64,000 bases of DNA, from positions 1-64,000 of the IMG/VR virus record IMGVR_UViG_3300025112_006940; one strand, 5' to 3'. A program made the position numbers and the translations under genes. A model generated the notes under the pieces. That model was not told the origin of the DNA. It did no database searches and was given only the letters and a program-made list of their open reading frames with translations. Numbering within the stretch: the stretch's first letter is position 1; each line of letters opens with the position of its first letter. Positions 1 to 41,132 of the stretch are shown here, piece after piece. This DNA comes from a virus.

Positions 1-130
1 AAAACAAAAGAAAAATAATGGTAAGGCTTTGGCAACATTGGAAAGAACATATAAAATAGTTTAATAATATAAGCTTAATTGTTAAGAGATAATAGAAATG
101 TTATCTCTTTTTTTTATATGTGGAGGCTAT

Positions 131-637
131 ATGACTTTTGAAATAGATAAGATAAATAAAAAATTAGCAATGTTTATGTATGATGAAATAATCAATGCAG
201 TTAATAGGCCAAATGATATTGATTTAATAATAGATTCTGGCGGTGGTGCATTAGAGTACGCAGTATTTATTTATGAATTTTTAAGAAACATACAAAATAG
301 AGATATTGGAAGCATCAATGTAAATGCTGTAGTTATTTCAAAATGTTTTTCTGCAGCTATGTTAATTTTTGCAGCTGCAGAAAATAGAGCAACATATCCA
401 AGTTCAACATTTATGACTCATGATGCCTCTATTGGATTTAATGCTAGTAATTTAAAATCAATAGAGACTGCATTAAGATCTAGCGCAAAACATGAAGAAA
501 TTGGATATAAAATATTAGCAGAAAGATCTAATGAAAATAAAACTTTTTGGAAAGAATCTGTAAGCGCATACAGTGAATTTTATTTCGATGGAAGAGATGC
601 GCTAAATTATGGTTTAGCAACTGAAATATTGGAGTGA
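131..637 (+). CDS. clpP: ClpP-family Ser protease
   Basis: IDSGGG, CFSAA (catalytic Ser), FMTH (His), DALNYGL; GGAGG RBS favours ATG at 131 over 98. Confidence 0.85.
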   Translation: MTFEIDKINKKLAMFMYDEIINAVNRPNDIDLIIDSGGGALEYAVFIYEFLRNIQNRDIGSINVNAVVISKCFSAAMLIFAAAENRATYPSSTFMTHDASIGFNASNLKSIETALRSSAKHEEIGYKILAERSNENKTFWKESVSAYSEFYFDGRDALNYGLATEILE

Positions 638-640
638 AAA

Positions 641-1297
641 ATGAACATAAAAAAGGTTTTGCTACATAACGTTCTTGTTCTTAATAGGTCTTGGGTTCCA
701 ATTCACATAACAACTGTAAGAGCTGCAATAGGTTTAGTTTTTGTAGATGCTGCAAATGTTATAGCAACAAATGATATGCTCAATATTTATAATGAAAGAG
801 TATGCTCTGAGTTTGAAAAATTAAGTTATGTTGATTGGATATCTGCATCTAAATTTCTAGATGATTCTAAATATGAAATGTTGAGATCTTCAAAAAGTAA
901 ACATTTTAAACCATCAGTAATTGTATTAACAAGATACAATGGCGTACCGAAATATGATATTAAATTTTCTAGAGTAACCATATATGATCGTGATAAAGGT
1001 AATTGCCAATATTGCGGAAAACATATTAGGAGAAGTGATTCAACTATAGATCATATTTTGCCAAAATCTAGAGGTGGAAAAAATACCTGGAATAATGTAA
1101 CATTATCTTGTAAAAAATGTAACGAATTTAAATCTGATAGAACTCCTATAGAGGCTGATATGGAATTATTGAACCCCCCTAAAAAACCATCATGGGTATC
1201 TATAAAATTTGGAAAAGTTAGAACTATTCGTGAACGTAATGAATGGATTAAATTTACTGGTTCTGTAGAAAGTGAGGTTGATGAAAATGGACGTTAA
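641..1297 (+). CDS. HNH endonuclease
   Basis: RDKGNCQYCG...TIDHILPKSRGG..TWNNV..SCKKCN. Confidence 0.9.
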   Translation: MNIKKVLLHNVLVLNRSWVPIHITTVRAAIGLVFVDAANVIATNDMLNIYNERVCSEFEKLSYVDWISASKFLDDSKYEMLRSSKSKHFKPSVIVLTRYNGVPKYDIKFSRVTIYDRDKGNCQYCGKHIRRSDSTIDHILPKSRGGKNTWNNVTLSCKKCNEFKSDRTPIEADMELLNPPKKPSWVSIKFGKVRTIRERNEWIKFTGSVESEVDENGR

Positions 1298-3070: not shown

Positions 3071-3499
3071 ATGTCACAAAGGATTAAAAATGGATGTATC
3101 GGTTTAATAATAGTATCATTTCTATTATTATCTGTTAGCTGTGATCCAGTGCCAGCAGATTTAAATGGCCCAGATCAAAATACATTGCCAACAGATGGTG
3201 AATTAGTAGGGTTATGGATAGCTGCTGATGGAGATCATGTAAATTTTATAAACAATTTTGATTTTCAGCGATGGGCAGATGATGATTTTGTTCATTGGGG
3301 CAAATATGAAATAGTCAATAACAACATACATTTTGATTTACAAGGTTATTTAACAAATGCTAGGAAATCTAGAATAACATATGGAGATATATGGTTTGAT
3401 GCATGGGTTGTTGAATATGATAAAGTAGATTTAAATTCATTAATCATAGCTGATCATGAATATCAAAAGTCTGTAGAATTTGAAGCCGGCAATTTTTAA
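3071..3499 (+). CDS. putative lipoprotein
   Basis: basic N-terminus, hydrophobic stretch, lipobox-like LSVSC. Confidence 0.6.
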   Translation: MSQRIKNGCIGLIIVSFLLLSVSCDPVPADLNGPDQNTLPTDGELVGLWIAADGDHVNFINNFDFQRWADDDFVHWGKYEIVNNNIHFDLQGYLTNARKSRITYGDIWFDAWVVEYDKVDLNSLIIADHEYQKSVEFEAGNF

Positions 3500-3570
3500 T
3501 TGCATCTAAAGTTTAAATCATCATACTTATGTATTAATAATATATTGTAAGGCACATTAATAAAATATGA

Positions 3571-3637
3571 CTGAAGCGAGGGCCGTGGCTACATCTTATC
3601 TAAAATGACAACGAAAAAGCCACCCTATTTATCTCAA
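3571..3637 (+). ncRNA. Y RNA-like element, copy 1 (short)
   Basis: TGAAGCGA..GTGGCT-ACATCT..AGCCAC..ATTTATCTCA; shares motifs with three other copies around the TROVE gene. Confidence 0.65.
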
Positions 3638-3655
3638 CAAAAATAAAATCAATCA

Positions 3656-3717
3656 CTGAAGCGACTGAATTGGCTACATCTCACTGCAAATGAAACTGCC
3701 ATTCATACATATCTCAG
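3656..3717 (+). ncRNA. Y RNA-like element, copy 2 (short, contains TCA-CTGCAAA-TGA anticodon-like hairpin)
   Basis: CTGA/TCAG and TGAAT-GGC/GCC-ATTCA stems, TACATCT linker. Confidence 0.65.
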
Positions 3718-3728
3718 GAGGATATAAT

Positions 3729-5357
3729 ATGGGTAAATTAAAAGCACATGCACAAAAGCGTGATGCAATAGTTCGTAAATTTAAAGAAGAACAAGTAACT
3801 AACTTTATGGATGGAATTTCTTATAAAGTTAATCCGTTAGATACATTAAAAATTATAGCATCATCTTCAATTTTTGGTGAACCTTCCTATTATCGTAAAT
3901 CAAAAGCAAGCAGAAGTAGATCATATGTTCATATGCAAATAGATAAAGTTCCATTTTTATTTGCTCATTATAAAGATCCAAAAATGTCAACTGAAGATGT
4001 ATTTGAAGATGCAATTGATAATGCATTAGAATTTGATTTTTTTGGAACATTGAAACTTGCTGTAGAGTTACGTTCAGCATATCAAATGAGATTAAACCCA
4101 TCTGTAATTGTAATGAGAGCTGCAGTTCATCCAAAAAGAGTAGAATTTTCAAAAGAAGCTCCTGGGCTTTTGCGTGATACAATTCGCAAAGTTATTCAAA
4201 GACCAGATGATTCATTTAATCAATTTGAATATTATATGTATATGAATGGATCTAAAAAAGGATTGCCATCAGTTGTAAAAAGAGCTTGGGGAGATAAGCT
4301 TACAAATTCTCCAGCATGGGCATTAAAGAAATATATTCAACCAAGATTATTTGATATTGTAAATATTGCCCATCCAAAGAAATCAGAAGCCTTAGCAGAG
4401 CTTATGACTACTGGTGATATTAAAGTTGATGAATCTGATACAAAATGGGAAACTTTAAGGGCTCAAGGAAAGTCATTTAAGGAAATATATGAAGCTGGAA
4501 GATTTAATCATATGGCTTTGCTTAGAAATTTAAGAAATATTTTTACAGAAACTGAAGATCTAAATTTTGCAAAAATAGTTGTTGAAGATCTAAAAAATGG
4601 AGTAGAAAAAGGTAGACAGTTCCCGTTTAGATATTATACAGCTCATAATATTTTGCATGGTAATAGAGATATAAATCATTTACCAATTTTGCTTGATGGT
4701 TTAGAGGATTGTATTGATTTAGCTATGGATAATTTTCCTAAGCTTGATGGCAAAACAATGTGTTTAGCAGATAATTCAGGTTCAGCACATGGTGCATTAC
4801 CAAGTCAATATGGTACTGTAAATGTTGCTCAAATTGCAAATCTTTCAAGTATAATGACTGCTGCAAATTCTGATGAAGGTTATGTTGGAGTTTTTGGTGA
4901 TACATTAAAAATATCTGCAATTAAAAAAAGAGCAGGTATTCTTGAGCAACACAAGAAAATAAATGGGCTTAGAGGTACTATTGGTGGAGGAACAGAGCAT
5001 GGTATTTGGTTATTTTGGGAACAAGCATTAGCTGAAAAACAACATTGGGATAATGTATTTATTTATTCTGATATGCAAGCAGGTCATGGTAATTTGTATG
5101 GTCATGGCAGAATTGCTAATAAGTTTTTAGTTGCTGGCGATAGTAGGCATATCGATGTATTAAAATGTGTTCAAGCTTACCGTGAAGAAGTTAATCCAAA
5201 GGTAAATGTATTTTCAGTACAAGTAGCAGGATATGATAATTCTGTACTTCCAGAAAATTTATACAGAACAGCTTTACTTTCAGGTTGGACTGGAAATGAA
5301 ACAATTTATGCAAATTCATTGAACAATGTTTGGGATCAATTAGAACAAAGGCAATAA
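3729..5357 (+). CDS. rsr: Ro60/Rsr TROVE-domain RNA-binding protein with C-terminal vWA
   Basis: WET, HMALLRNLRNI, QFPFRYYTA, vWA DNSGS and YSDMQ; AGGAGG RBS supports ATG 3729. Confidence 0.92.
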   Translation: MGKLKAHAQKRDAIVRKFKEEQVTNFMDGISYKVNPLDTLKIIASSSIFGEPSYYRKSKASRSRSYVHMQIDKVPFLFAHYKDPKMSTEDVFEDAIDNALEFDFFGTLKLAVELRSAYQMRLNPSVIVMRAAVHPKRVEFSKEAPGLLRDTIRKVIQRPDDSFNQFEYYMYMNGSKKGLPSVVKRAWGDKLTNSPAWALKKYIQPRLFDIVNIAHPKKSEALAELMTTGDIKVDESDTKWETLRAQGKSFKEIYEAGRFNHMALLRNLRNIFTETEDLNFAKIVVEDLKNGVEKGRQFPFRYYTAHNILHGNRDINHLPILLDGLEDCIDLAMDNFPKLDGKTMCLADNSGSAHGALPSQYGTVNVAQIANLSSIMTAANSDEGYVGVFGDTLKISAIKKRAGILEQHKKINGLRGTIGGGTEHGIWLFWEQALAEKQHWDNVFIYSDMQAGHGNLYGHGRIANKFLVAGDSRHIDVLKCVQAYREEVNPKVNVFSVQVAGYDNSVLPENLYRTALLSGWTGNETIYANSLNNVWDQLEQRQ

Positions 5358-5365
5358 ATAAATAA

Positions 5366-5511
5366 TCAGAAGCGAGGAATATAGTTACATCTACTTATAA
5401 GAGAGAGACTCTGGTTCGAGTCCAGATTTATGGAAAATGCCAGCTTGCTGGAAAATGCCGTAAATAGCTTAATAGGAAAAGCGCTATATTTCTATATCCA
5501 TTTATCTCTGA
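5366..5511 (+). ncRNA. YrlA-like Y RNA with permuted tRNA module, copy 3
   Basis: T arm TCTGG-TTCGAGT-CCAGA, acceptor TTTATGG/CCGTAAA, D arm GCTT-AATAGGAA-AAGC, closed by TCAGA/TCTGA stem. Confidence 0.85.
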
Positions 5512-5522
5512 GTATAAAATTA

Positions 5523-5667
5523 GATAGTAAAAAGAAGCAAAATGTTTAGCTACATCTGGTAAAAATTGTCCTCAAAACAATTGATACGGTTCAAACCCGT
5601 TAAGATTGAGTTGATTTCGATCAATTCAAATGCAACACTGCTATTCATACTGATCTCTTTTATTATC
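5523..5667 (+). ncRNA. Y RNA-like element, copy 4
   Basis: GAAGCAA..GCTACATCT, T-arm ACGG-TTCAAAC-CCGT, TTGAGTTGAT-TTCG-ATCAATTCAA hairpin, ..GATCTCTTTT closing stem. Confidence 0.75.
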
Positions 5668-5677
5668 GATAAAAACG

Positions 5678-5709
5678 AATGTCTTGGTATAAAAACCAAG
5701 GCATTTTTT
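5678..5709 (+). terminator. intrinsic terminator after the Ro60/Y RNA unit
   Basis: AATGTCTTGGT/ACCAAGGCATT stem + T run. Confidence 0.7.
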
Positions 5710-5771
5710 GTTATAATATATAGTAAGAAACAATTAGGAAAACAACTTATAACCTTTTTAGGAGGAGCTAC

Positions 5772-6620
5772 ATGGCTTTAGATTTAGAAAAGATTAAAAA
5801 TAGGCTGAATCAATATGAAAACCCAAAAGAAGGAGGCGGAGGAGGAAACGATAAGCTCTGGCGGTTAGATCCAGGTGATGGAGAAGCTTCTGCAATAATT
5901 AAATTAGTACCGTATAAATATGCACCAGAGGATCCATTTTTAGAGATGTGGTTTCATTATGGGCTTGCTGGAAAGAATTTTTTATGCCCTAAAAAAATGG
6001 ATAATGTTGAATGTGATGTTTGTAATTTTGGTTGGAAAACATTAGACAAATATCGTGAAACAAAAAAAGAGGAATATAAGAAACAGCTTGGTATTTTATT
6101 ACCAAAATGTCGTGTTTATGTTCCAATGGTTCAAATGGATGAATTAGATAAGGGCGTAAGATTATGGGGTTTTAGTCCAACAATTCATGAAATTTTGTTA
6201 AAAATGGCATTTGAATTTGGGACAGCGCAAGTAGATATTACTGATCCAAAAAATAGCCCAGAATTTAAAGTAACTGTTCAATCACCTCAAAAGCATGGTG
6301 GTTTATTTAATAAGACTGAAATTGTAAAGGTTGAAGAACAGCTTCAAACTAAACTTTCTAAATTAGCTGGTACGCAAAAAGAAATAAATGCTATTTTGGA
6401 TACATGCCCAGATATTAGCGAAATTTATTCATTGAAATCAATGGATGAATTAACAAAGGCATTGCATGAACATGTAGGTGGTTCAGAAGGTAATGAATCT
6501 AATTCTGATGATTCAAGTCTTGGTACTGCTAAGCTTGATAATAGTAATGAAGAATCTAAAGAAGAATCATTAGAGGATATTGGCAGTAAGTTTGAAAAAA
6601 TGTTAGGTGATGAAGAATAA
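5772..6620 (+). CDS. single-stranded DNA-binding protein (gp32-like)
   Basis: HYG..CPK..CDVC zinc site, GVRLWGF, DITDP, acidic tail; adjacent to recombinase. Confidence 0.8.
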   Translation: MALDLEKIKNRLNQYENPKEGGGGGNDKLWRLDPGDGEASAIIKLVPYKYAPEDPFLEMWFHYGLAGKNFLCPKKMDNVECDVCNFGWKTLDKYRETKKEEYKKQLGILLPKCRVYVPMVQMDELDKGVRLWGFSPTIHEILLKMAFEFGTAQVDITDPKNSPEFKVTVQSPQKHGGLFNKTEIVKVEEQLQTKLSKLAGTQKEINAILDTCPDISEIYSLKSMDELTKALHEHVGGSEGNESNSDDSSLGTAKLDNSNEESKEESLEDIGSKFEKMLGDEE

Positions 6621-6644
6621 TATTAAAGAGGTGATTAAAAATTA

Positions 6645-7820
6645 ATGGCTAAGAGAAAAGTAGTAATCAAAGAAGATTATGAAGAAGACTCTAAGTCAGA
6701 TTCATCGCCTGGAACGTTTAATGATATACTAATAGATACACTGAAAAAGGATCTTGGTGATTCTGGCTCAGTGTATGTATTAGGAAAAGATGAAACGCCA
6801 GCTGATGTAACTGAATGGTTATCAACAGGTTCAACAATATTAGATATGAATATATCTAACAATCCATATATTGATGGTGGAATTCCAGTAGGTAGATTAA
6901 CAGAAGTTCATGGAGATCCAAGCACAGGAAAATCTTTAATGGCATATATGATTCTTGCTGATTGTGCTAGAAAGGGTGGAGTATCAGTTTTAATTGATAC
7001 TGAAAATGCTGCGAATATTAGCTTTCTTAAAATGCTTGGTTTAGAGCCTGATAAAAATTTAGTGTATTCACAAGCAGATACAGTTGAAGATGTTTTCAAT
7101 ATTATTGAAACTATCATAAAAACTGTTAGAAAAAATGATAGAAATAAGCTTATAACAATAGTTTGGGATAGCATTGCTGGAACATCAACAAGGAAAGAAA
7201 TGGAAGAAGATGTTGGTAATGTTCAAGTTGCAATGGTACCAAGATTATTAGGGCAAGGATTAAGAAAAGTAATTAGGCAAATTGGTGATCAAAGAATTGC
7301 ATTAATTTTTCTTAATCAATTAAGATCAAAAATCGGAATGGTTTTTGGTGACCCTATGACCCCTCCAGGTGGTAATGCAGTTCCATTTTTTGCAGATGTA
7401 CGACTTAGATTATTAACTGCTGGTAAAATTAAGGCTGGTAATGATATAATTGGCGTTGGTACAAAAGCAAAAGTTGTAAAAACTAGATTCGGTCCGCCAT
7501 TTAGAGAATGTATTTTCAATATATATTTTGATAAAGGCATTGTAGATGAAGAATCTTGGATAACATATTTGAAGAGTAAAAAGTTAATAAGAAAAGAAAA
7601 AGAAAAATCTCCAATCTCTTTTATAAAGCTTGATGATGATGCTGAAGAGTTTTCATTTAGAGATAAGGAATTTGCTAAATTTATCAAAAAACACCCAGAA
7701 TTAAGTGCTAAAATTAAAAAAATGATCAAATTAGATATGTATATTGATCAAAATCCTGATAATAGGGATGAAGATATAGTGCTAGAGGAAATAAATGAAG
7801 ATGAAATTTCAAGTTTGTAG
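6645..7820 (+). CDS. recA: RecA/UvsX recombinase
   Basis: GDPSTGKS Walker A, IDTENA, VWDSIA, FLNQLR, PGGNAVPF. Confidence 0.93.
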   Translation: MAKRKVVIKEDYEEDSKSDSSPGTFNDILIDTLKKDLGDSGSVYVLGKDETPADVTEWLSTGSTILDMNISNNPYIDGGIPVGRLTEVHGDPSTGKSLMAYMILADCARKGGVSVLIDTENAANISFLKMLGLEPDKNLVYSQADTVEDVFNIIETIIKTVRKNDRNKLITIVWDSIAGTSTRKEMEEDVGNVQVAMVPRLLGQGLRKVIRQIGDQRIALIFLNQLRSKIGMVFGDPMTPPGGNAVPFFADVRLRLLTAGKIKAGNDIIGVGTKAKVVKTRFGPPFRECIFNIYFDKGIVDEESWITYLKSKKLIRKEKEKSPISFIKLDDDAEEFSFRDKEFAKFIKKHPELSAKIKKMIKLDMYIDQNPDNRDEDIVLEEINEDEISSL

Positions 7821-17956: not shown

Positions 17957-18036
17957 ATGAACATACGCAATAATGGAAGCGCGGCCAATCTAAACATATT
18001 GGTGAAGTGTGGGTTCGAACCCCATTGTTCATACCA
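17957..18036 (+). tRNA. atypical tRNA with 8-nt anticodon loop (CTAAACAT)
   Basis: perfect ATGAACA/TGTTCAT acceptor, CCAAT/ATTGG stem, TTCGAAC T-loop, CCA. Confidence 0.7.
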
Positions 18037-37922: not shown

Positions 37923-38621
37923 ATGAGCAATGTTTTTTTGAAAATTCATCCGCTTGATAGAAATAACAAACCTATTAAAACACACTGTTTTGATATGGAA
38001 AATAACATGTTTGTAAAGGTAAACCAAAGGGCTACAAAAAATATTCCAAATAAAAAGTACTTTACAAGAGATGAAAAAATTGGAAAATTTAAAGTCCTAA
38101 GGGCAAGAAATGAATTTAAAGAAACATTGATGGAAGAATTTCAAAGGGATCATAGGAATCTTAAAAGACGAAAAATCGAAACGCATTTATTATTTTCAGA
38201 TAAGACAGTACTTGTCCTATCTCAACCGCATAAATACATATATAAAAGTCAAAGACCAATTAAGCATAAATTTGCATTTGATGTATTAAATAATGAATTT
38301 ATTTTAATTTCAAATGAAACTTGGAAAAATGAAGGATTACATAAGTTTGGCAGAGGTTTTTTAGTTAGAAAAGAAAATGGTAAGTGGAAAAAAATTATGC
38401 CTATTTCTGAAGGCAAATTTACTAAAGAATTAGATGAAATACAACTTCAGGGTATTCATGATATTGTAGGAGAAAATTTACTTTTATGGATATCTAAATC
38501 TAAGTATGATAATATGTGCAATAGGTGCAAGAAAACATGCAAACAACCTAAGCTTACTGAATTAATGTTTTGTAAAACATTTGACGCTATTAAATCAAGA
38601 AAGAAAAGGGCTGTTAAATGA
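37923..38621 (+). CDS. hypothetical protein with C-terminal CxxCxxxC..C
   Basis: CNRCKKTCKQ..MFC. Confidence 0.7.
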   Translation: MSNVFLKIHPLDRNNKPIKTHCFDMENNMFVKVNQRATKNIPNKKYFTRDEKIGKFKVLRARNEFKETLMEEFQRDHRNLKRRKIETHLLFSDKTVLVLSQPHKYIYKSQRPIKHKFAFDVLNNEFILISNETWKNEGLHKFGRGFLVRKENGKWKKIMPISEGKFTKELDEIQLQGIHDIVGENLLLWISKSKYDNMCNRCKKTCKQPKLTELMFCKTFDAIKSRKKRAVK

Positions 38622-39241
38622 TTGATAAAAAAGCAGCTAAGGCTGTTGATCAAGCAATAAAGGTTTTAAATAAATACATACTTGAGTCTGATAAAATTTC
38701 AAATGAAAGAAAAGATCAGGTTAACAATGTATTAGAAGTTTTAGGTGAGAGGTTATTTACTGCACCGGCTTCAACAAAAACTGCAATGCATTCAGCATAT
38801 CCTGGCGGATTGATTGTTCATTCATTAGCAGTAACAAGGAGAATATTTGATTTATGCGGCGCATTTGAGGTTTCAGAAGAAGATGTGCCGCATGACTCAA
38901 AAGTAATTGTTGGTTTATTCCATGATATTGGAAAAATAGGAACATATGATGGAATACCTCAATATATGCCAGAAGAATCAGAATGGCATAGAACCAAACT
39001 TGGCCAAATATATAATTACAATAAAAATCTTGATGATGCACTTACACATGCTCAAAGATCAGCAAGATTATTAGGGCAATGCGGATTGATTTTAACTGAT
39101 CAAGAATATGCATCAATATTGATTCATGATGGAATTTATATTGAAACAAATAAATCAAGAGAAGCTATGTATACTAAAATTAAATTAGCGAGAATTGCAC
39201 ATTTTGCTGATTCATGGGTTGCTTTACAGGAGGATATTTAA
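38618..39241 (+). CDS. HD-domain phosphohydrolase
   Basis: APAS..H...GGLIVHS, FHDIGK, HDG, HFAD. Confidence 0.88.
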   Translation: MIDKKAAKAVDQAIKVLNKYILESDKISNERKDQVNNVLEVLGERLFTAPASTKTAMHSAYPGGLIVHSLAVTRRIFDLCGAFEVSEEDVPHDSKVIVGLFHDIGKIGTYDGIPQYMPEESEWHRTKLGQIYNYNKNLDDALTHAQRSARLLGQCGLILTDQEYASILIHDGIYIETNKSREAMYTKIKLARIAHFADSWVALQEDI

Positions 39242-39242
39242 T

Positions 39243-40043
39243 ATGAAACTTACATTCGTAGGTTGTGGTTCTGCATTTAATAAGTTAAGTCTTCAAAGCA
39301 ATATGCTTTTAGAAGCTGAGTCTGGTAAAAAAATGCTTATTGATTGTGGTTCTTATGCGCATATAGGATTATTATCTGCATTAGGGATTAATGAAACAAA
39401 TTATGCAGATGAAATTGATTCTATTTATATTTCACATCAACATGGAGATCATATTGATGGGTTAGAAGAAATTGCATTTTGCACATATTTTAATCCTAAT
39501 GCTCCAAAAATTGCACTTTATTGCGAGCAATATCTAATGCATAGAATTTGGGATGAAAGTCTTAAAGGTGGATTAGGATCTGTTCAAGGCAAAGTAATGC
39601 ATCTTACAGATTATTTTGATTGTAGGCCATTGAATGTTAATGTTATAAATCAATGGGAGGGAATTAATTTTGAATTAGTTCAAACACTTCATGTGATGAA
39701 TGGATTTGAATTTGTTCCAAGCTATGGTTTAATGATAAAAGAAGAAAAGGTAAATGCTAAAAATATATTTTTAACAACAGATACACAACATTGCCCAAAT
39801 CAAATTCAAGATTTTTATGATATGGCAGATGTTATATTTCATGATTGTGAAACAGCACCTTATTTTTCTGGTGTTCATGCCCGCTATGATGAATTAAAAA
39901 CGCTGAATAAAGAAACAAAAAAGAAAATGTGGTTATATCATTATCAACCGGAACCACCACAAATGAAAACTGCAAGAGAAGATGGTTTTAGAGGACTAGT
40001 TACAAGAGGCCAAAGTTTTAAGTACGAGGTGAAAAATGAGTGA
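39243..40043 (+). CDS. MBL-fold metallo-hydrolase (RNase Z-like)
   Basis: GCGSAF, LIDCG, SHQHGDH, TTDT, FHDC, LYHY. Confidence 0.88.
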   Translation: MKLTFVGCGSAFNKLSLQSNMLLEAESGKKMLIDCGSYAHIGLLSALGINETNYADEIDSIYISHQHGDHIDGLEEIAFCTYFNPNAPKIALYCEQYLMHRIWDESLKGGLGSVQGKVMHLTDYFDCRPLNVNVINQWEGINFELVQTLHVMNGFEFVPSYGLMIKEEKVNAKNIFLTTDTQHCPNQIQDFYDMADVIFHDCETAPYFSGVHARYDELKTLNKETKKKMWLYHYQPEPPQMKTAREDGFRGLVTRGQSFKYEVKNE

Positions 40044-41055
40044 ATTAATTGTTGAAGTTTGTAAAATAGATGAAATAAGATCACATAGTAATGCAGATAA
40101 ATTAGAAATTGCTATAGTGAAGGGGTGGTCTGTTATTACACAAAAAGGAAAATATAAGGCTGGAGATCTAGTTGTCCATGTTCCCCCAGATACGATTCTT
40201 ACTGAAGAACTTTCAGAACAGCTCGAAGTTACAAAATACCTTTCTAAGCAAAGAGTAAAGGCTGTAAGATTACGTGGTGAAATGAGTTTTGGTTTAATAT
40301 TTGAGCCACCACTTGGGCATCATCAAGAAGGTACGTCAGTTGTAGATTTTTATAAAATGAGAAAATGGGAGCCACCTGAAGAATCTATTCAAGGTGATTC
40401 AGAAGTAGATGCTACATTTTTTGTTAAATACACAAGCATTGAAAACTATAGAAATTTTCCTTTGATGATTGCTGAAGGTGAAGATGTAATTATAACTGAA
40501 AAAATTCATGGAACAAATTCAAGAGTAGGATATTGTTTTGATACTAAGGCGCAAGAACCTATTTTCATGATTGGCTCTCATAACAGACGAAGAAAAATTG
40601 ATGTTGAGAGCTTATATCATAAACCATTAACTGATAATGTAAAATCATTGCTTAAACAATTATATGATAGCTGGGACAATTGTGCAGCAGTAATTTTATA
40701 TGGCGAAATTTATGGACGTGGTATTCAAGATTTAGGTTATGATATAGAACATTCTTTTGCTGCATTTGATATAAAGAGAGATGATCATTATTTTGATTAT
40801 TCAGCAATGAAAGATTTATGTGATTCATTTGAAATTCCAACAGTTCCAGTATTATATCGTGGCCCATTTAGCAAAGAAATTTTAGAAAAATATTACATGG
40901 GCACTACAATAGTTGGAAATAATTCAAATCAAATTAGGGAAGGCGTTGTTGTTAAACCAACTTTTGAACATAGAAATGCTCGTGGTCGTAGAGTAATATT
41001 GAAAATGATAAGCGATGATTATCTCGTTAGAAAAGATGGTACAGAAAGACATTAG
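40036..41055 (+). CDS. ATP-dependent RNA ligase (DRB0094/Rnl5-like) with N-terminal tRNA-binding OB fold
   Basis: HSNADKLEI..LRGEMSFG; TEKIHGTN, YGEIYG, FDI, REGVVVK, LKMIS. Confidence 0.9.
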   Translation: MSELIVEVCKIDEIRSHSNADKLEIAIVKGWSVITQKGKYKAGDLVVHVPPDTILTEELSEQLEVTKYLSKQRVKAVRLRGEMSFGLIFEPPLGHHQEGTSVVDFYKMRKWEPPEESIQGDSEVDATFFVKYTSIENYRNFPLMIAEGEDVIITEKIHGTNSRVGYCFDTKAQEPIFMIGSHNRRRKIDVESLYHKPLTDNVKSLLKQLYDSWDNCAAVILYGEIYGRGIQDLGYDIEHSFAAFDIKRDDHYFDYSAMKDLCDSFEIPTVPVLYRGPFSKEILEKYYMGTTIVGNNSNQIREGVVVKPTFEHRNARGRRVILKMISDDYLVRKDGTERH

Positions 41056-41132
41056 CACGTGTATCCAAATTGGACAAAGGAAACGGACTGCAAATCCGTT
41101 CTGTGAGAGTTCGAGTCCCTCCGCGTGCTCCA
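41055..41132 (+). tRNA. tRNA-Cys(GCA)
   Basis: ACGGA-CTGCAAA-TCCGT, U73, CCA. Confidence 0.9.

What the first reader, a model, noticed from the sequence alone, without database searches (positions are those of the whole stretch)
3571..5667. Phage Ro60 locus with a four-member Y-RNA array carrying variable anticodon-like loops
Seen: four related elements (3571-3637, 3656-3717, 5366-5511, 5523-5667) flank the TROVE gene and end at a terminator. Each has a terminal stem, a conserved asymmetric loop (5' GAAGCRA / 3' AnnnATCTC), a second stem whose sequence co-varies between copies (GTGGCT/AGCCAC, TGAAT-GGC/GCC-ATTCA, ATATAG/CTATAT, TAGC/GCTA) and an invariant TACATCT linker leading to a variable module. 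In copy 2 the module is a hairpin with loop CTGCAAA, identical to this phage's tRNA-Cys anticodon loop; in copy 3 it starts with CTTATAA (Ile-UAU-like). Known: bacterial Ro60 binds Y RNAs encoded beside it, and YrlA RNAs mimic tRNA via T, acceptor and D arms. Inference: a modular RNP in which Ro60 displays interchangeable anticodon or tRNA mimics, e.g. as decoys for host anticodon nucleases or adaptors for tRNA repair/decay. The binding motif does not resemble the canonical GGUCCGA Y-RNA helix.
Basis: partly seen in the sequence, partly recalled or inferred. Interest (0 to 1): 0.88.

Follow-up and report, generated by a model that had tools for sequence, protein, structure and literature searches.

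The report
Phage Ro60 with four Y RNAs
A marine phage encodes the ring-shaped RNA-binding protein Ro60 flanked by four small RNAs that share one conserved docking stem but carry different inserts, two of them scrambled tRNA look-alikes; this is a diverged, uncatalogued branch of the known Ro60/Y-RNA partnership and not a new kind of system.

Summary
GAAGCRA-N10-TACATCT occurs exactly four times in the 76.5-kb contig, all on the Ro60 (TROVE) gene's strand and flanking it. A covariance model built only from other phages picks these four as its top hits.

The same frame (P1 ending GA / WGCRG / P2 / UACWUC / variable insert / P2' / AUUC or AUC / UC-P1') lies beside the orthologous gene in 60 of 65 related phage loci, 1-7 copies each, never on the opposite strand. 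It also occurs in Bacillus phage G and in bacterial genomes. Both stems covary strongly.

Rfam does not detect them.

- Copy 3 is a circularly permuted tRNA.
- Copy 4 is a D-arm-poor tRNA body.
- Copies 1 and 2 are short.

Anticodon-loop mimicry is real across the family (46 such hairpins against 7.5 expected). It is weak in this window: 3-bp stems, a C33 loop, and a tRNA-Cys 7-mer match with P about 0.37.

The decoy function is untested and no RNA evidence was obtained. This scan had already noted the same family on other DNA. Verdict: new variant of a known kind.

The parts
3512..3541 (+). Weak sigma-70-like promoter candidate (TTTAAA-18-AATAAT) about 30 nt upstream of copy 1. It would be the possible start of one transcription unit running to the terminator.
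   Evidence: It matches 9 of 12 positions only, and such sites are fewer here than in shuffles, so this is a suggestion only.
3568..3640 (+). Y RNA copy 1 (core 3572-3636). Short YrlB-like form: P1 is only TGA/TCA; J5 is AGCGA; P2 is GGG(CC)GTGGC/GCCACCCT; the linker is TACATCT. The terminal loop is A-rich and unstructured and holds ACAACGAAAAA. J3 is ATTTATC.
   Evidence: 15.6 bits. The same ACGAAAA loop class lies just upstream of TROVE in L011, L013, L025, L029, L030 and L054.
3653..3720 (+). Y RNA copy 2 (core 3656-3717). Short form: P1 is CTGA/TCAG; J5 is AGCGA; P2 is CTGAA(T)TGGC/GCCATTCA; the linker is TACATCT. It then has a 3-bp hairpin TCA-CTGCAAA-TGA. Its 3' P1 strand overlaps the Shine-Dalgarno AGGAGG of the Ro60 gene.
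   Evidence: 15.6 bits. The fold is not better than shuffles (z = 0.09).
3729..5357 (+). Ro60 (TROVE + vWA) gene, 542 aa, with the MIDAS motif DNSGS.
   Evidence: Pfam TROVE 7.5e-8. PHROG 850 'RNA-binding protein' 2.5e-38. A family profile hits the Thermus phage phiLo Ro60 entries 9KOP/9L5Y at 1e-13. For the AlphaFold model (pLDDT 74.8), the 12 best listed Foldseek PDB matches (13 with E <= 0.001) are all Ro60 entries: 9KOP, 2NVO, 1YVP, 9NEN. D348-N-S350-G-S352 is invariant in 24 homologues.
5366..5511 (+). Y RNA copy 3. Long YrlA-like form: P1 is TCAGA/TCTGA; J5 is AGCGA; P2 is a 10-bp GGAATATAGT/GCTATATTTC; the linker is TACATC. The module is a circularly permuted tRNA. In order it has a weak anticodon-arm-like hairpin (TCT-A-CTTATAA-G-AGA), AGAC, a T arm TCTGG-TTCGAGT-CCAGA, a 7-bp closed acceptor stem TTTATGG/CCGTAAA with an inner hairpin, TA, and a D arm GCTT-AATAGGAA-AAGC.
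   Evidence: 13.8 bits. ARAGORN finds no tRNA in the module as it stands but calls a cloverleaf in 31 rotated versions.
5523..5667 (+). Y RNA copy 4 (model hit 5529-5662). P1 is long, 12 bp with one bulge; J5 is AGCAA; P2 is AATG(TT)TAGC/GCTA(TT)CAT; the linker is TACATC. The module has a D-loop remnant TGGTAAAA, a hairpin AATTGT-CCTCAAA-ACAATT, a T arm ACGG-TTCAAAC-CCGT, and an extra 10-bp hairpin. There is no D stem.
   Evidence: z = -2.78; 16.8 bits. It resembles the modules L058:4606, L077:4720 and L052:4698, whose loop is CTTGAAA. The Rfam tRNA model gives only 17.7 bits.
5677..5706 (+). Intrinsic terminator (12-bp stem followed by a T run) closing the unit.

Best explanation
The locus is one phage operon: a possible promoter, Y RNA 1, Y RNA 2, Ro60, Y RNA 3, Y RNA 4, terminator. 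It encodes a Ro60 ring protein and four Y RNAs of a diverged YrlA/YrlB type. Each RNA closes its 5' and 3' ends into a two-helix 'handle'. The handle runs P1 ending G-A/U-C, an internal loop 5'-WGCRG / 3'-(N)AUUC or AUC, then P2, then UACWUC. By position and partial sequence this handle matches the Ro60-binding module of bacterial YrlA, so it is inferred to dock on the outer face of the Ro60 ring. The handle carries an exchangeable effector module: an A-rich loop (copy 1), a small anticodon-loop-like hairpin (copy 2), a circularly permuted, end-sealed tRNA (copy 3), and a D-arm-poor tRNA body (copy 4). By analogy with characterised Ro60/Y-RNA particles, each module would tether Ro60 to a different partner or gate its cavity. 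The likely partners are proteins that recognise tRNA shape or anticodon loops, or an exoribonuclease such as PNPase. This would give the phage a set of Ro60 particles acting on tRNA or structured-RNA metabolism during infection. Shown here: the elements, their conservation, linkage, strand bias, covariation, tRNA-like wiring, and the Ro60 fold of the protein. Inferred: transcription as discrete RNAs, Ro60 binding, and the partners.
For: The motif occurs only 4 times in the contig, all flanking the gene on its strand. A regex for the handle gives 196 hits on the TROVE strand against 2 on the opposite strand in 82 loci. Model R1 gives 133 hits at E<=0.01 in 60 of 65 non-redundant phage loci, all on the + strand, 79 upstream and 54 downstream, 1-7 per locus. 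It gives 64 hits, all on the + strand beside the gene, in GTDB genomes. Covariation: 89.1% of cells pair against 59.0% in shuffles, the score is 0.731 against 0.198 (0 of 500 shuffles reach it), slid controls give 0.10-0.16, and all 17 pairs show changes on both sides. A test anchored on motifs and independent of structure gives P1 4.62 of 6 pairs against 2.81 for permuted partners, and a perfect P2 complement in 40% against 5%. The handle lines up with the Rfam YrlA consensus, acggCgaAUGCu-P2-CUA ... aAaAcUuG-ucGccg, and with the published GNCGAAN0-1G and YUAY motifs. In Bacillus phage G the same handle frames a module that Rfam YrlA matches at 36.2 bits, E 1e-5. Other family members hit YrlA at 33-37 bits. 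The protein is a Ro60 by Pfam, profile and fold, with an intact MIDAS motif. A phage Ro60 has been shown experimentally to bind upstream-encoded Y-like RNAs and PNPase (PMC12135203).
Against: There is no expression evidence. The only RNA-library contigs matching the stretch cover 4932-5269 inside the coding region, and none covers an RNA element. No Rfam Y RNA family reaches even E<=10 in the window. The window copies score low with the family model (13.8-16.8 bits). They deviate at a nearly invariant position: A where 132 of 133 relatives have G in WGCRG. Copy 1 has only a 3-bp P1, and copies 1 and 2 do not fold better than shuffles. The literal CGAA motif is absent from all four copies (UGAA, AGAA). 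Ro60 binding was not and cannot be tested here.
Confidence: 0.8

Rival explanations
1. The anticodon-loop and tRNA resemblances are evolutionary residue. On this view Y RNA modules arose from tRNA genes of the neighbouring arrays, and what matters is only the tRNA elbow (T and D arms) or simply a stable insert. The loops CTGCAAA, CTTATAA and CCTCAAA in this window would then have no identity-specific role.
For: In the window the three candidate anticodon hairpins are defective: 3-bp stems in copies 2 and 3, and C33 instead of U33 in copy 4. One exact match to an own anticodon loop has P about 0.37. Known YrlA works without an anticodon loop and often has a long variable arm at exactly this position (10.1101/312249).
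Against: Family-wide, YU-NNN-A(A/C) heptaloops on stems of at least 4 bp number 46, against 7.5 +/- 2.8 in dinucleotide shuffles (maximum 19 in 300). Orthologous elements keep the hairpin through compensatory stem changes while the three 'anticodon' letters differ: L058:4732 has UCU and UCC, whereas L077:4848 and L052:4825 have UUU and UAA.
Confidence: 0.4
2. The elements act in cis on the Ro60 operon, as processing sites, stabilisers or an autoregulatory leader, and not as free trans-acting Y RNAs. For example, Ro60 bound to copy 2 would mask the Shine-Dalgarno sequence of its own gene.
For: Copy 2's 3' P1 strand (TCAG) runs into the AGGAGG 12 nt before the ATG. All four elements appear to lie in one transcription unit between a weak promoter-like site and one terminator.
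Against: In relatives the nearest element usually ends some 60-160 nt from the start codon (median gap 161 nt). Arrays of up to 7 lie downstream of the gene as often as upstream, which does not fit a leader. Bacterial Y RNAs are likewise cut from operon precursors yet act in trans (PMC4201824). The two roles are not exclusive.
Confidence: 0.1
3. The elements are precursors of working tRNAs. The conserved leader and trailer (the handle) would be a processing or quality-control signal, and RNase P/Z would release a tRNA used in translation.
For: In relatives some modules are complete, unpermuted cloverleaves that ARAGORN and Rfam call tRNAs, for example L061:4686-4758 Lys-UUU at 58.9 bits, L071:4614-4685 and L068:4706-4778. 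M. smegmatis YrlA is cut by RNase P and receives CCA (PMC4201824).
Against: None of the four window elements can yield a tRNA. ARAGORN finds none there, and the Rfam tRNA model gives 17.7 bits against a cut-off of 29. Copy 3 is permuted with a sealed acceptor stem. Copies 1 and 2 have no tRNA arms at all.
Confidence: 0.04
4. Chance similarity or a dispersed repeat or mobile element with no RNA function.
For: The sequence is AT-rich, and two of the four copies have unremarkable folding energies.
Against: The strand bias is 196 to 2. The elements are exclusively linked to one gene family across phages that are only about 50% identical in that protein. The stems vary in sequence but stay paired.
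Confidence: 0.01

Closest known systems
YrlA / YrlB Y RNAs with bacterial Ro60 (Rsr): Salmonella, M. smegmatis, mycobacteriophages, Bacillus phage G (Chen et al. 2014, PMC4201824; Rfam RF02553; YrlA structure preprint 10.1101/312249)
   Same: The RNAs are encoded beside Ro60 on the same strand and there are several per locus. The 5' and 3' ends pair into a long stem holding a conserved 5'-strand motif next to CGA. A UA(C/Y) follows the second helix. One long RNA has a T arm, a sealed acceptor stem and a D arm (a permuted tRNA); shorter RNAs lack these. The handle consensus aligns with the RF02553 consensus.
   Different: The handle sequence differs: GA|WGCRG and UACWUC against CGA|AUGCu and CUA. 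No member reaches the Rfam gathering score (best 37 against 69), and the window copies get no hit at all. Arrays reach 7 copies. Modules are wired in several ways that I did not find described for YrlA: anticodon-arm-like hairpins with heptaloops, tandem hairpins, tRNA bodies whose acceptor stem is the handle itself, and whole embedded cloverleaves. YrlA 'lacks the anticodon loop'.
Thermus phage phiLo Ro60 with Yrl1 and Yrl2 (PDB 9KOP, 9L5Y; PMC12135203)
   Same: It is the closest solved structure to this protein (Foldseek E 7e-14, TM 0.65/0.74; profile E 1e-13). It is a phage Ro60 with Y-like RNAs encoded next to the gene, and binding was shown by EMSA and cryo-EM. It also forms ternary complexes with host PNPase.
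   Different: Identity is only about 20%. The Yrl RNAs were picked by a CGAA motif and are not reported as tRNA mimics. There are two RNAs, not an array flanking the gene.
Deinococcus radiodurans Rsr-Yrn1-PNPase (RYPER) and metazoan Ro60-Y RNA particles
   Same: The logic is modular: a stem that binds Ro60 plus an effector module that recruits a partner. There are two to four different Y RNAs per genome. Yrn1 has a T arm and a possible anticodon arm with a 6-nt loop.
   Different: There is no sequence similarity beyond the CGA-type motif. The partners of the phage RNAs are unknown.
E. coli phage Bas63 gp130, a Ro60-like protein reported to counter the Ppl defence system (preprint PMC11482910)
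   Same: It is a phage Ro60-like gene beside tRNA genes. The authors guess that some annotated tRNAs are Y RNAs, which is what searches show for this clade. It points to a role in the phage-host conflict.
   Different: It is a different phage group. No RNA family was defined. Relatedness of that protein or its RNAs to this clade was not tested here.

Membership tests
Y RNA of the bacterial YrlA/YrlB type | Encoded within about 2 kb of a Ro60/TROVE gene, on the same strand | tested here: met
   The four copies lie 12-160 nt upstream and 9-170 nt downstream of the gene, all on the + strand. The same holds in 60 of 65 related loci.
Y RNA of the bacterial YrlA/YrlB type | 5' and 3' ends pair into a long stem, interrupted by an internal loop, that carries the Ro60 site; the stem is supported by covariation | tested here: met
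   P1 and P2 are 89% paired, with a covariation score of 0.731 against 0.198 shuffled. In the window, P1 is 3, 4, 5 and 12 bp long in copies 1 to 4.
Y RNA of the bacterial YrlA/YrlB type | Conserved 5'-strand motif GNCGAAN0-1G (CGAA) (PMC4201824) | tested here: inconclusive
   The family consensus is yCGAAGCGG or yUGAWGCRG. The C of CGA is a covarying P1 position (U-A 64, C-G 44). The window copies read CUGAAGCGA, UCAGAAGCGA and AAGAAGCAA, so literal CGAA is absent. The layout matches the RF02553 consensus.
Y RNA of the bacterial YrlA/YrlB type | Conserved YUAY after the second helix, opening the variable region | tested here: met
   (C/T)TACATCT is present in all four copies. In 133 relatives T, A and C are nearly invariant (133, 131 and 133 of 133).
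Y RNA of the bacterial YrlA/YrlB type | At least one RNA per locus with a tRNA-like domain: T arm, closed acceptor stem, D arm | tested here: met
   Copy 3 has all three, and ARAGORN calls a cloverleaf only after rotation. Copy 4 has a T arm but no D stem.
Y RNA of the bacterial YrlA/YrlB type | Reaches the Rfam RF02553 gathering score (69 bits) | tested here: not met
   There is no YrlA or Y_RNA hit at E<=10 in 3450-5780. Relatives reach 33-37 bits.
Y RNA of the bacterial YrlA/YrlB type | Discrete stable small RNA bound by Ro60 and dependent on it | not testable with these tools
   The only RNA-library contigs matching the stretch cover 4932-5269 in the coding region.
Ro60 / TROVE protein | TROVE domain above the Pfam cut-off and a HEAT-repeat ring plus vWA fold | tested here: met
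   Pfam gives 32.4 bits against 23. For the model (pLDDT 74.8, pTM 0.73), the 12 best listed Foldseek PDB matches are all Ro60 entries.
Ro60 / TROVE protein | MIDAS motif DxSxS in the vWA domain | tested here: met
   DNSGS at residues 348-352 is invariant in 24 homologues.
Genuine tRNA gene | Unpermuted cloverleaf with an open acceptor end, detected by ARAGORN or by Rfam RF00005 at 29 bits or more | tested here: not met
   ARAGORN makes no call at any of the four elements. RF00005 gives 17.7 bits at copy 4. Some relatives do pass.

The most novel reading that the evidence does not exclude
The array is a panel of identity-specific tRNA or anticodon-arm mimics displayed on Ro60. Each Y RNA would imitate a particular tRNA species; across the family these are Lys-UUU, Asn-GUU, Ser-UGA, Tyr-GUA, Leu-UAA and even stop-reading UCA, UUA and CUA loops. 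The mimics would bait, sense or sequester host factors that attack or modify specific anticodon loops, such as anticodon nucleases of anti-phage defence. Alternatively they would guide Ro60 and an exonuclease to the matching damaged tRNAs. This would be a counter-defence RNP whose specificity is reprogrammed by swapping the module.
Probability: 0.15. Interest if true: 0.85.

Novelty: new variant of a known kind. Interest (0 to 1): 0.55.

Why it matters
Ro60 and Y RNAs are conserved from bacteria to humans, yet what the tRNA-like half of bacterial Y RNAs binds is still unknown. This clade is very large: over 3,400 proteins at E<1e-20 among the candidates scored. It occurs in phages and bacteria and includes cultured Bacillus phage G. 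It offers natural series of up to seven RNAs with one constant handle and differently wired tRNA pieces. That amounts to a ready-made structure-function panel for asking which tRNA features matter.

There is also a practical consequence. Current pipelines miss these RNAs, because Rfam YrlA scores stay below threshold, or they mislabel some as tRNAs, as ARAGORN and RF00005 do. This inflates phage tRNA counts. If the anticodon-mimic reading is right, the locus would link Ro60 to the tRNA-centred arms race between phages and hosts. This phage also carries an RNA ligase next to tRNA-Cys and an Apyc1-like anti-Pycsar gene.

Tried and rejected
- Rfam at the gathering threshold over the whole window, and at E<=10 over 3450-5780, found no Y RNA family, only chance hits.
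- The search for related loci with the single protein found nothing. An alignment of homologues was needed.
- blastn of the locus against phage records found only a 94-nt stretch of phage G inside the gene.
- phmmer of the protein against PDB found nothing. The profile and the fold search did.
- MAFFT alone misaligned the 3' strand of P2, because J3 and the inserts vary in length. I therefore used a motif-anchored script test and a covariance-model alignment.
- My first script's P1 score had an offset error and read 0 throughout. It was corrected.
- RNA evidence: four marine metatranscriptome runs from two studies hold only 150-167-nt contigs at 4932-5269 of the coding region at 99% identity or more. 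They hold nothing over the RNA elements. This says nothing about expression of the small RNAs, and the marine habitat is only a hint.
- The Desulfovibrio phage Ro60 locus (33% identity) has no element of this handle type.
- I considered that the copy 2 loop specifically mimics the phage tRNA-Cys. That is not significant on its own.
- Two review articles on bacterial Y RNAs were not in the library. A 2026 preprint on bacterial tRNA mimics does not cover this family.
Full report
**What is in the window**

The window is the first 64 kb of a 76.5-kb IMG/VR phage contig, estimated 41% complete. It is AT-rich and carries 26 tRNA genes. Between an unannotated ORF ending at 3499 and a gp32-like SSB gene starting at 5772 lies one long ORF. 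Its likely start is ATG 3729, behind AGGAGG, and it ends at 5357.

The product is a Ro60:
- Pfam TROVE scores above its cut-off, and PHROG 850 'RNA-binding protein' scores 2.5e-38.
- A profile of 24 homologues hits the Thermus phage phiLo Ro60 structures at 1e-13.
- For an AlphaFold model (pLDDT 74.8), the 12 best listed Foldseek PDB matches are all Ro60 entries from phage, Deinococcus, Xenopus and human.
- The vWA MIDAS motif DNSGS is invariant in the family.

**The observation**

The pattern GAAGCRA-N10-TACATCT occurs exactly four times in the whole contig, at 3573, 3658, 5369 and 5534. All four are on the gene's strand, two on each side of the gene. There are none on the reverse strand and none for a reversed control pattern. 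A 12-bp terminator follows the last copy. I therefore confirm the observation. Two details need adjusting: the GA and TC of the 'loop' are really the last two pairs of the terminal stem, and copy 1's terminal stem is only 3 bp.

**Is it more than chance? Evidence from relatives**

The closest named protein is Bacillus phage G gp540, at 46% identity. Upstream of that gene I found six elements with the same frame, TGAWGCGG-N9/10-TACTTC ... ATCTCA.

The protein family is very large: over 3,400 proteins at E<1e-20 among the candidates scored. I fetched 80 IMG/VR loci with 3-kb flanks.
- A simple regex for the 5' half gives 196 hits on the gene's strand and 2 on the other.
- Parsing gives one architecture: P1 (4-14 bp, ending GA/TC), J5 (WGCRG), P2 (up to 10 bp), (U)UACWUC, a variable module of 17 to nearly 300 nt, P2', J3 (about 6-8 nt ending AUUC, or AUC in this window and phage G), and P1'.
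- A test that places both anchors by sequence motif alone shows that P1 pairs at 4.62 of 6 positions, against 2.81 when 5' and 3' halves of different elements are combined (maximum 3.03 in 200 permutations). P2 has a perfect 7-nt complement in 40% of elements against 5%.
- A covariance model built from 22 elements, none from the window, finds 133 matches at E<=0.01 in 60 of 65 non-redundant loci. All are on the gene's strand, 79 upstream and 54 downstream, 1-7 per locus.
- On the resulting alignment, 89.1% of cells pair against 59.0% in shuffles. The covariation score is 0.731 against 0.198, and 0 of 500 shuffles reach it. Slid controls give 0.10-0.16, and every one of the 17 pairs shows changes on both sides. 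This alignment is fitted to the model, which is why I also ran the independent test.
- Run without filters on 3300-5900, the model's four best hits are exactly the four claimed elements, at 13.8-16.8 bits; the next hit scores 9.1.

The window copies are divergent members. They have A where 132 of 133 relatives have G in WGCRG, and AUC instead of UUC.

The same RNA also lies beside the orthologous gene in GTDB genomes, with 64 hits, all on the + strand. These include the isolates Flavobacterium sp. 9AF, Bacillus sp. Brlt_9 and Acetatifactor muris.

**Relation to known Y RNAs**

The Rfam YrlA consensus reads acggCgaAUGCu-uggGgaa-CUA-cgcc ... T arm, closed stem, D arm ... ggcg-uAuG-uucCcca-aAaAcUuG-ucGccg. 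This is the same layout:
- P1 ends in CGA.
- The 5' loop contains (A/U)GC.
- P2 follows.
- Then comes (C)UA.
- The 3' loop is A-rich and then U-rich.
- P1' begins UCG.

Chen et al. 2014 define GNCGAAN0-1G and a conserved YUAY that opens the variable arm. The family consensus here is yCGAAGCGG ... UAC.

In phage G the same handle frames a module that Rfam YrlA matches at 36 bits, model positions 23-86 covering T arm, acceptor and D arm. Six other family members give 33-37 bits. All are far below the gathering score of 69, and the window gives no hit at all. A later paper cites Chen et al. as having found Y-like RNAs in phage G. So these are Y RNAs of a diverged YrlA/YrlB type that current catalogues do not capture.

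**The variable modules**

Across 143 distinct modules there are 40 T-loop hairpins (TTCRANN), against 0.9 expected. There are 46 hairpins with anticodon-like heptaloops (YT-NNN-A[AC], stem of at least 4 bp), against 7.5 +/- 2.8 in dinucleotide shuffles, with a maximum of 19. Many modules are related, so these are not independent counts.

Several wirings occur:
- YrlA-like permuted tRNAs.
- Permuted tRNAs that also keep a full anticodon-arm-like hairpin followed by AGGUC and the T arm. After rotation ARAGORN calls these tRNA-Thr(GGU) or tRNA-Asn(GUU).
- Two tandem anticodon-like hairpins whose stems covary between phages while the middle three letters change.
- tRNA bodies in which P2 replaces the acceptor stem.
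- Whole cloverleaves embedded in the handle, which ARAGORN and RF00005 call tRNAs.
- Short RNAs with an A-rich ACGAAAA loop.

[quoted passage not shown]
- Copy 1 belongs to the ACGAAAA class.
- Copy 2 has a single hairpin TCA-CTGCAAA-TGA.
- Copy 3 is a permuted tRNA. ARAGORN calls a cloverleaf only after rotation, in 31 rotations. Its anticodon-arm position holds a 3-bp stem flanked by A.G mismatches and the loop CTTATAA.
- Copy 4 resembles the acceptor-replaced, D-arm-poor class, but its loop is CCTCAAA, with C33.

**How far the anticodon idea goes**

As a family property, anticodon-loop mimicry is well supported statistically, and by compensatory changes in the stems. For this window alone it is weak. 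Copy 2's hairpin is not predicted by RNAfold and its fold is no better than shuffles. Identity of one 7-mer to any of the phage's 25 anticodon loops has P about 0.37. The phage's tRNA-Ile(UAU) loop differs from copy 3's. Topologically the hairpin occupies the long variable-arm position already known for YrlA. The decoy or adaptor function is an inference that I could not test.

**Mechanism proposed**

The unit appears to be one operon, from a weak promoter-like site at 3512-3541 to the terminator at 5677-5706. From it the RNAs would be processed, as in M. smegmatis. The handle is inferred to dock on Ro60. The modules would present tRNA-shaped or anticodon-shaped surfaces to partners, or tether an exonuclease as in the Deinococcus and phiLo complexes. 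I put 0.8 on 'Ro60-bound Y RNAs of a diverged YrlA/YrlB type' and about 0.15 on identity-specific anticodon mimicry in counter-defence.

Context that makes the latter worth testing: this phage has an RNA ligase gene ending at the first base of tRNA-Cys and an Apyc1-like anti-Pycsar gene. A preprint also reports a phage Ro60-like protein countering a defence system.

**Expression**

The only RNA-library contigs matching the stretch are four pieces of 150-167 nt within 4932-5269, from marine metatranscriptomes of two studies. None covers an RNA element. This neither supports nor refutes transcription of the small RNAs.

**Novelty**

I found no paper or Rfam family describing this handle, the arrays, or the alternative tRNA wirings. 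The kind of system is published, however: phage and bacterial Ro60 with adjacent, partly tRNA-like Y RNAs.

Earlier notes of this scan describe the same handle on other DNA, including the phage G link. I reached the same reading independently before consulting them, and I do not count them as support.

Verdict: a real, ordinary-in-kind but uncatalogued variant. It is interesting mainly for the modular tRNA and anticodon mimicry seen across the family.

Noticed in passing
window 3714-3731: The 3' strand of copy 2's terminal stem (TCAG) overlaps the AGGAGG Shine-Dalgarno sequence 12 nt before the Ro60 start codon. Ro60 bound to copy 2 could therefore mask its own ribosome-binding site. In relatives the gap is usually some 60-160 nt, so this is not a family feature.
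   Followed up: partly
window 3610-3621; L011:2830-2893, L013:2846-2909, L025:2828-2891, L029, L030, L054: A class of short elements, usually the one nearest the Ro60 start, has an unstructured A-rich terminal loop with a conserved ACGAAAA. Copy 1 belongs to it. Among short model hits, 16 of 73 carry A[AC]GAAAA. CGAA is complementary to the UUCG of T loops. No function is known.
   Followed up: partly
window 5570-5576; L012/L016 (CTCTAAA), L035 (CTTTAAA), L046/L076/L078 (CTTCAAA), L083:1826-1898: Some anticodon-like loops carry stop-reading triplets: UCA, UUA and CUA. ARAGORN calls one embedded module 'tRNA-Stop(tta)'. Copy 4's loop CCUCAAA would read UCA but has C33.
   Followed up: no
window 38618-41132: Three genes lie in a row directly before tRNA-Cys (41055). 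The first is an HD-domain protein. The second is a metallo-beta-lactamase-fold protein that matches the anti-Pycsar protein Apyc1 (PF23023, 92 bits against a cut-off of 50), not a generic RNase Z. The third is an RNA ligase (PF09414, 2e-25) with an OB-fold domain.
   Followed up: partly
window 17957-18036: ARAGORN reports a tRNA with a four-letter anticodon (aaac) within the tRNA array. The Rfam tRNA model does not list it at its gathering score.
   Followed up: no
window 98-1297 and 5772-7820: The neighbours of the locus are a ClpP-like protease, an HNH endonuclease, a gp32-like SSB (just under the Pfam cut-off; PHROG 224) and a RecA/UvsX-type recombinase. No RtcB, RtcA or PNPase gene lies next to Ro60 here.
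   Followed up: partly
L077:881-1524; L044:6650-6773; L052:6050-6096; L058:2111-2393: Related phages carry other structured RNAs near their tRNA and Y RNA arrays: ROOL RNA (284 bits), DUF3800-I and DUF3800-XI RNAs (both above their gathering scores), and a weak group I intron match.
   Followed up: no
L093, L095, L120 (GTDB genomes): The same Ro60 clade with the same handle RNAs occurs in cultured bacteria: Bacillus sp. Brlt_9 (3 copies), Flavobacterium sp. 9AF (57 bits) and Acetatifactor muris DSM 23669. I did not determine whether these sit in prophages.
   Followed up: partly
window 3580, 3665, 5376, 5541: All four window copies have A at the last position of WGCRG, where 132 of 133 relatives have G. 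Like phage G, they use AUC rather than UUC in the 3' loop. This may be co-variation between handle and protein in this lineage.
   Followed up: no
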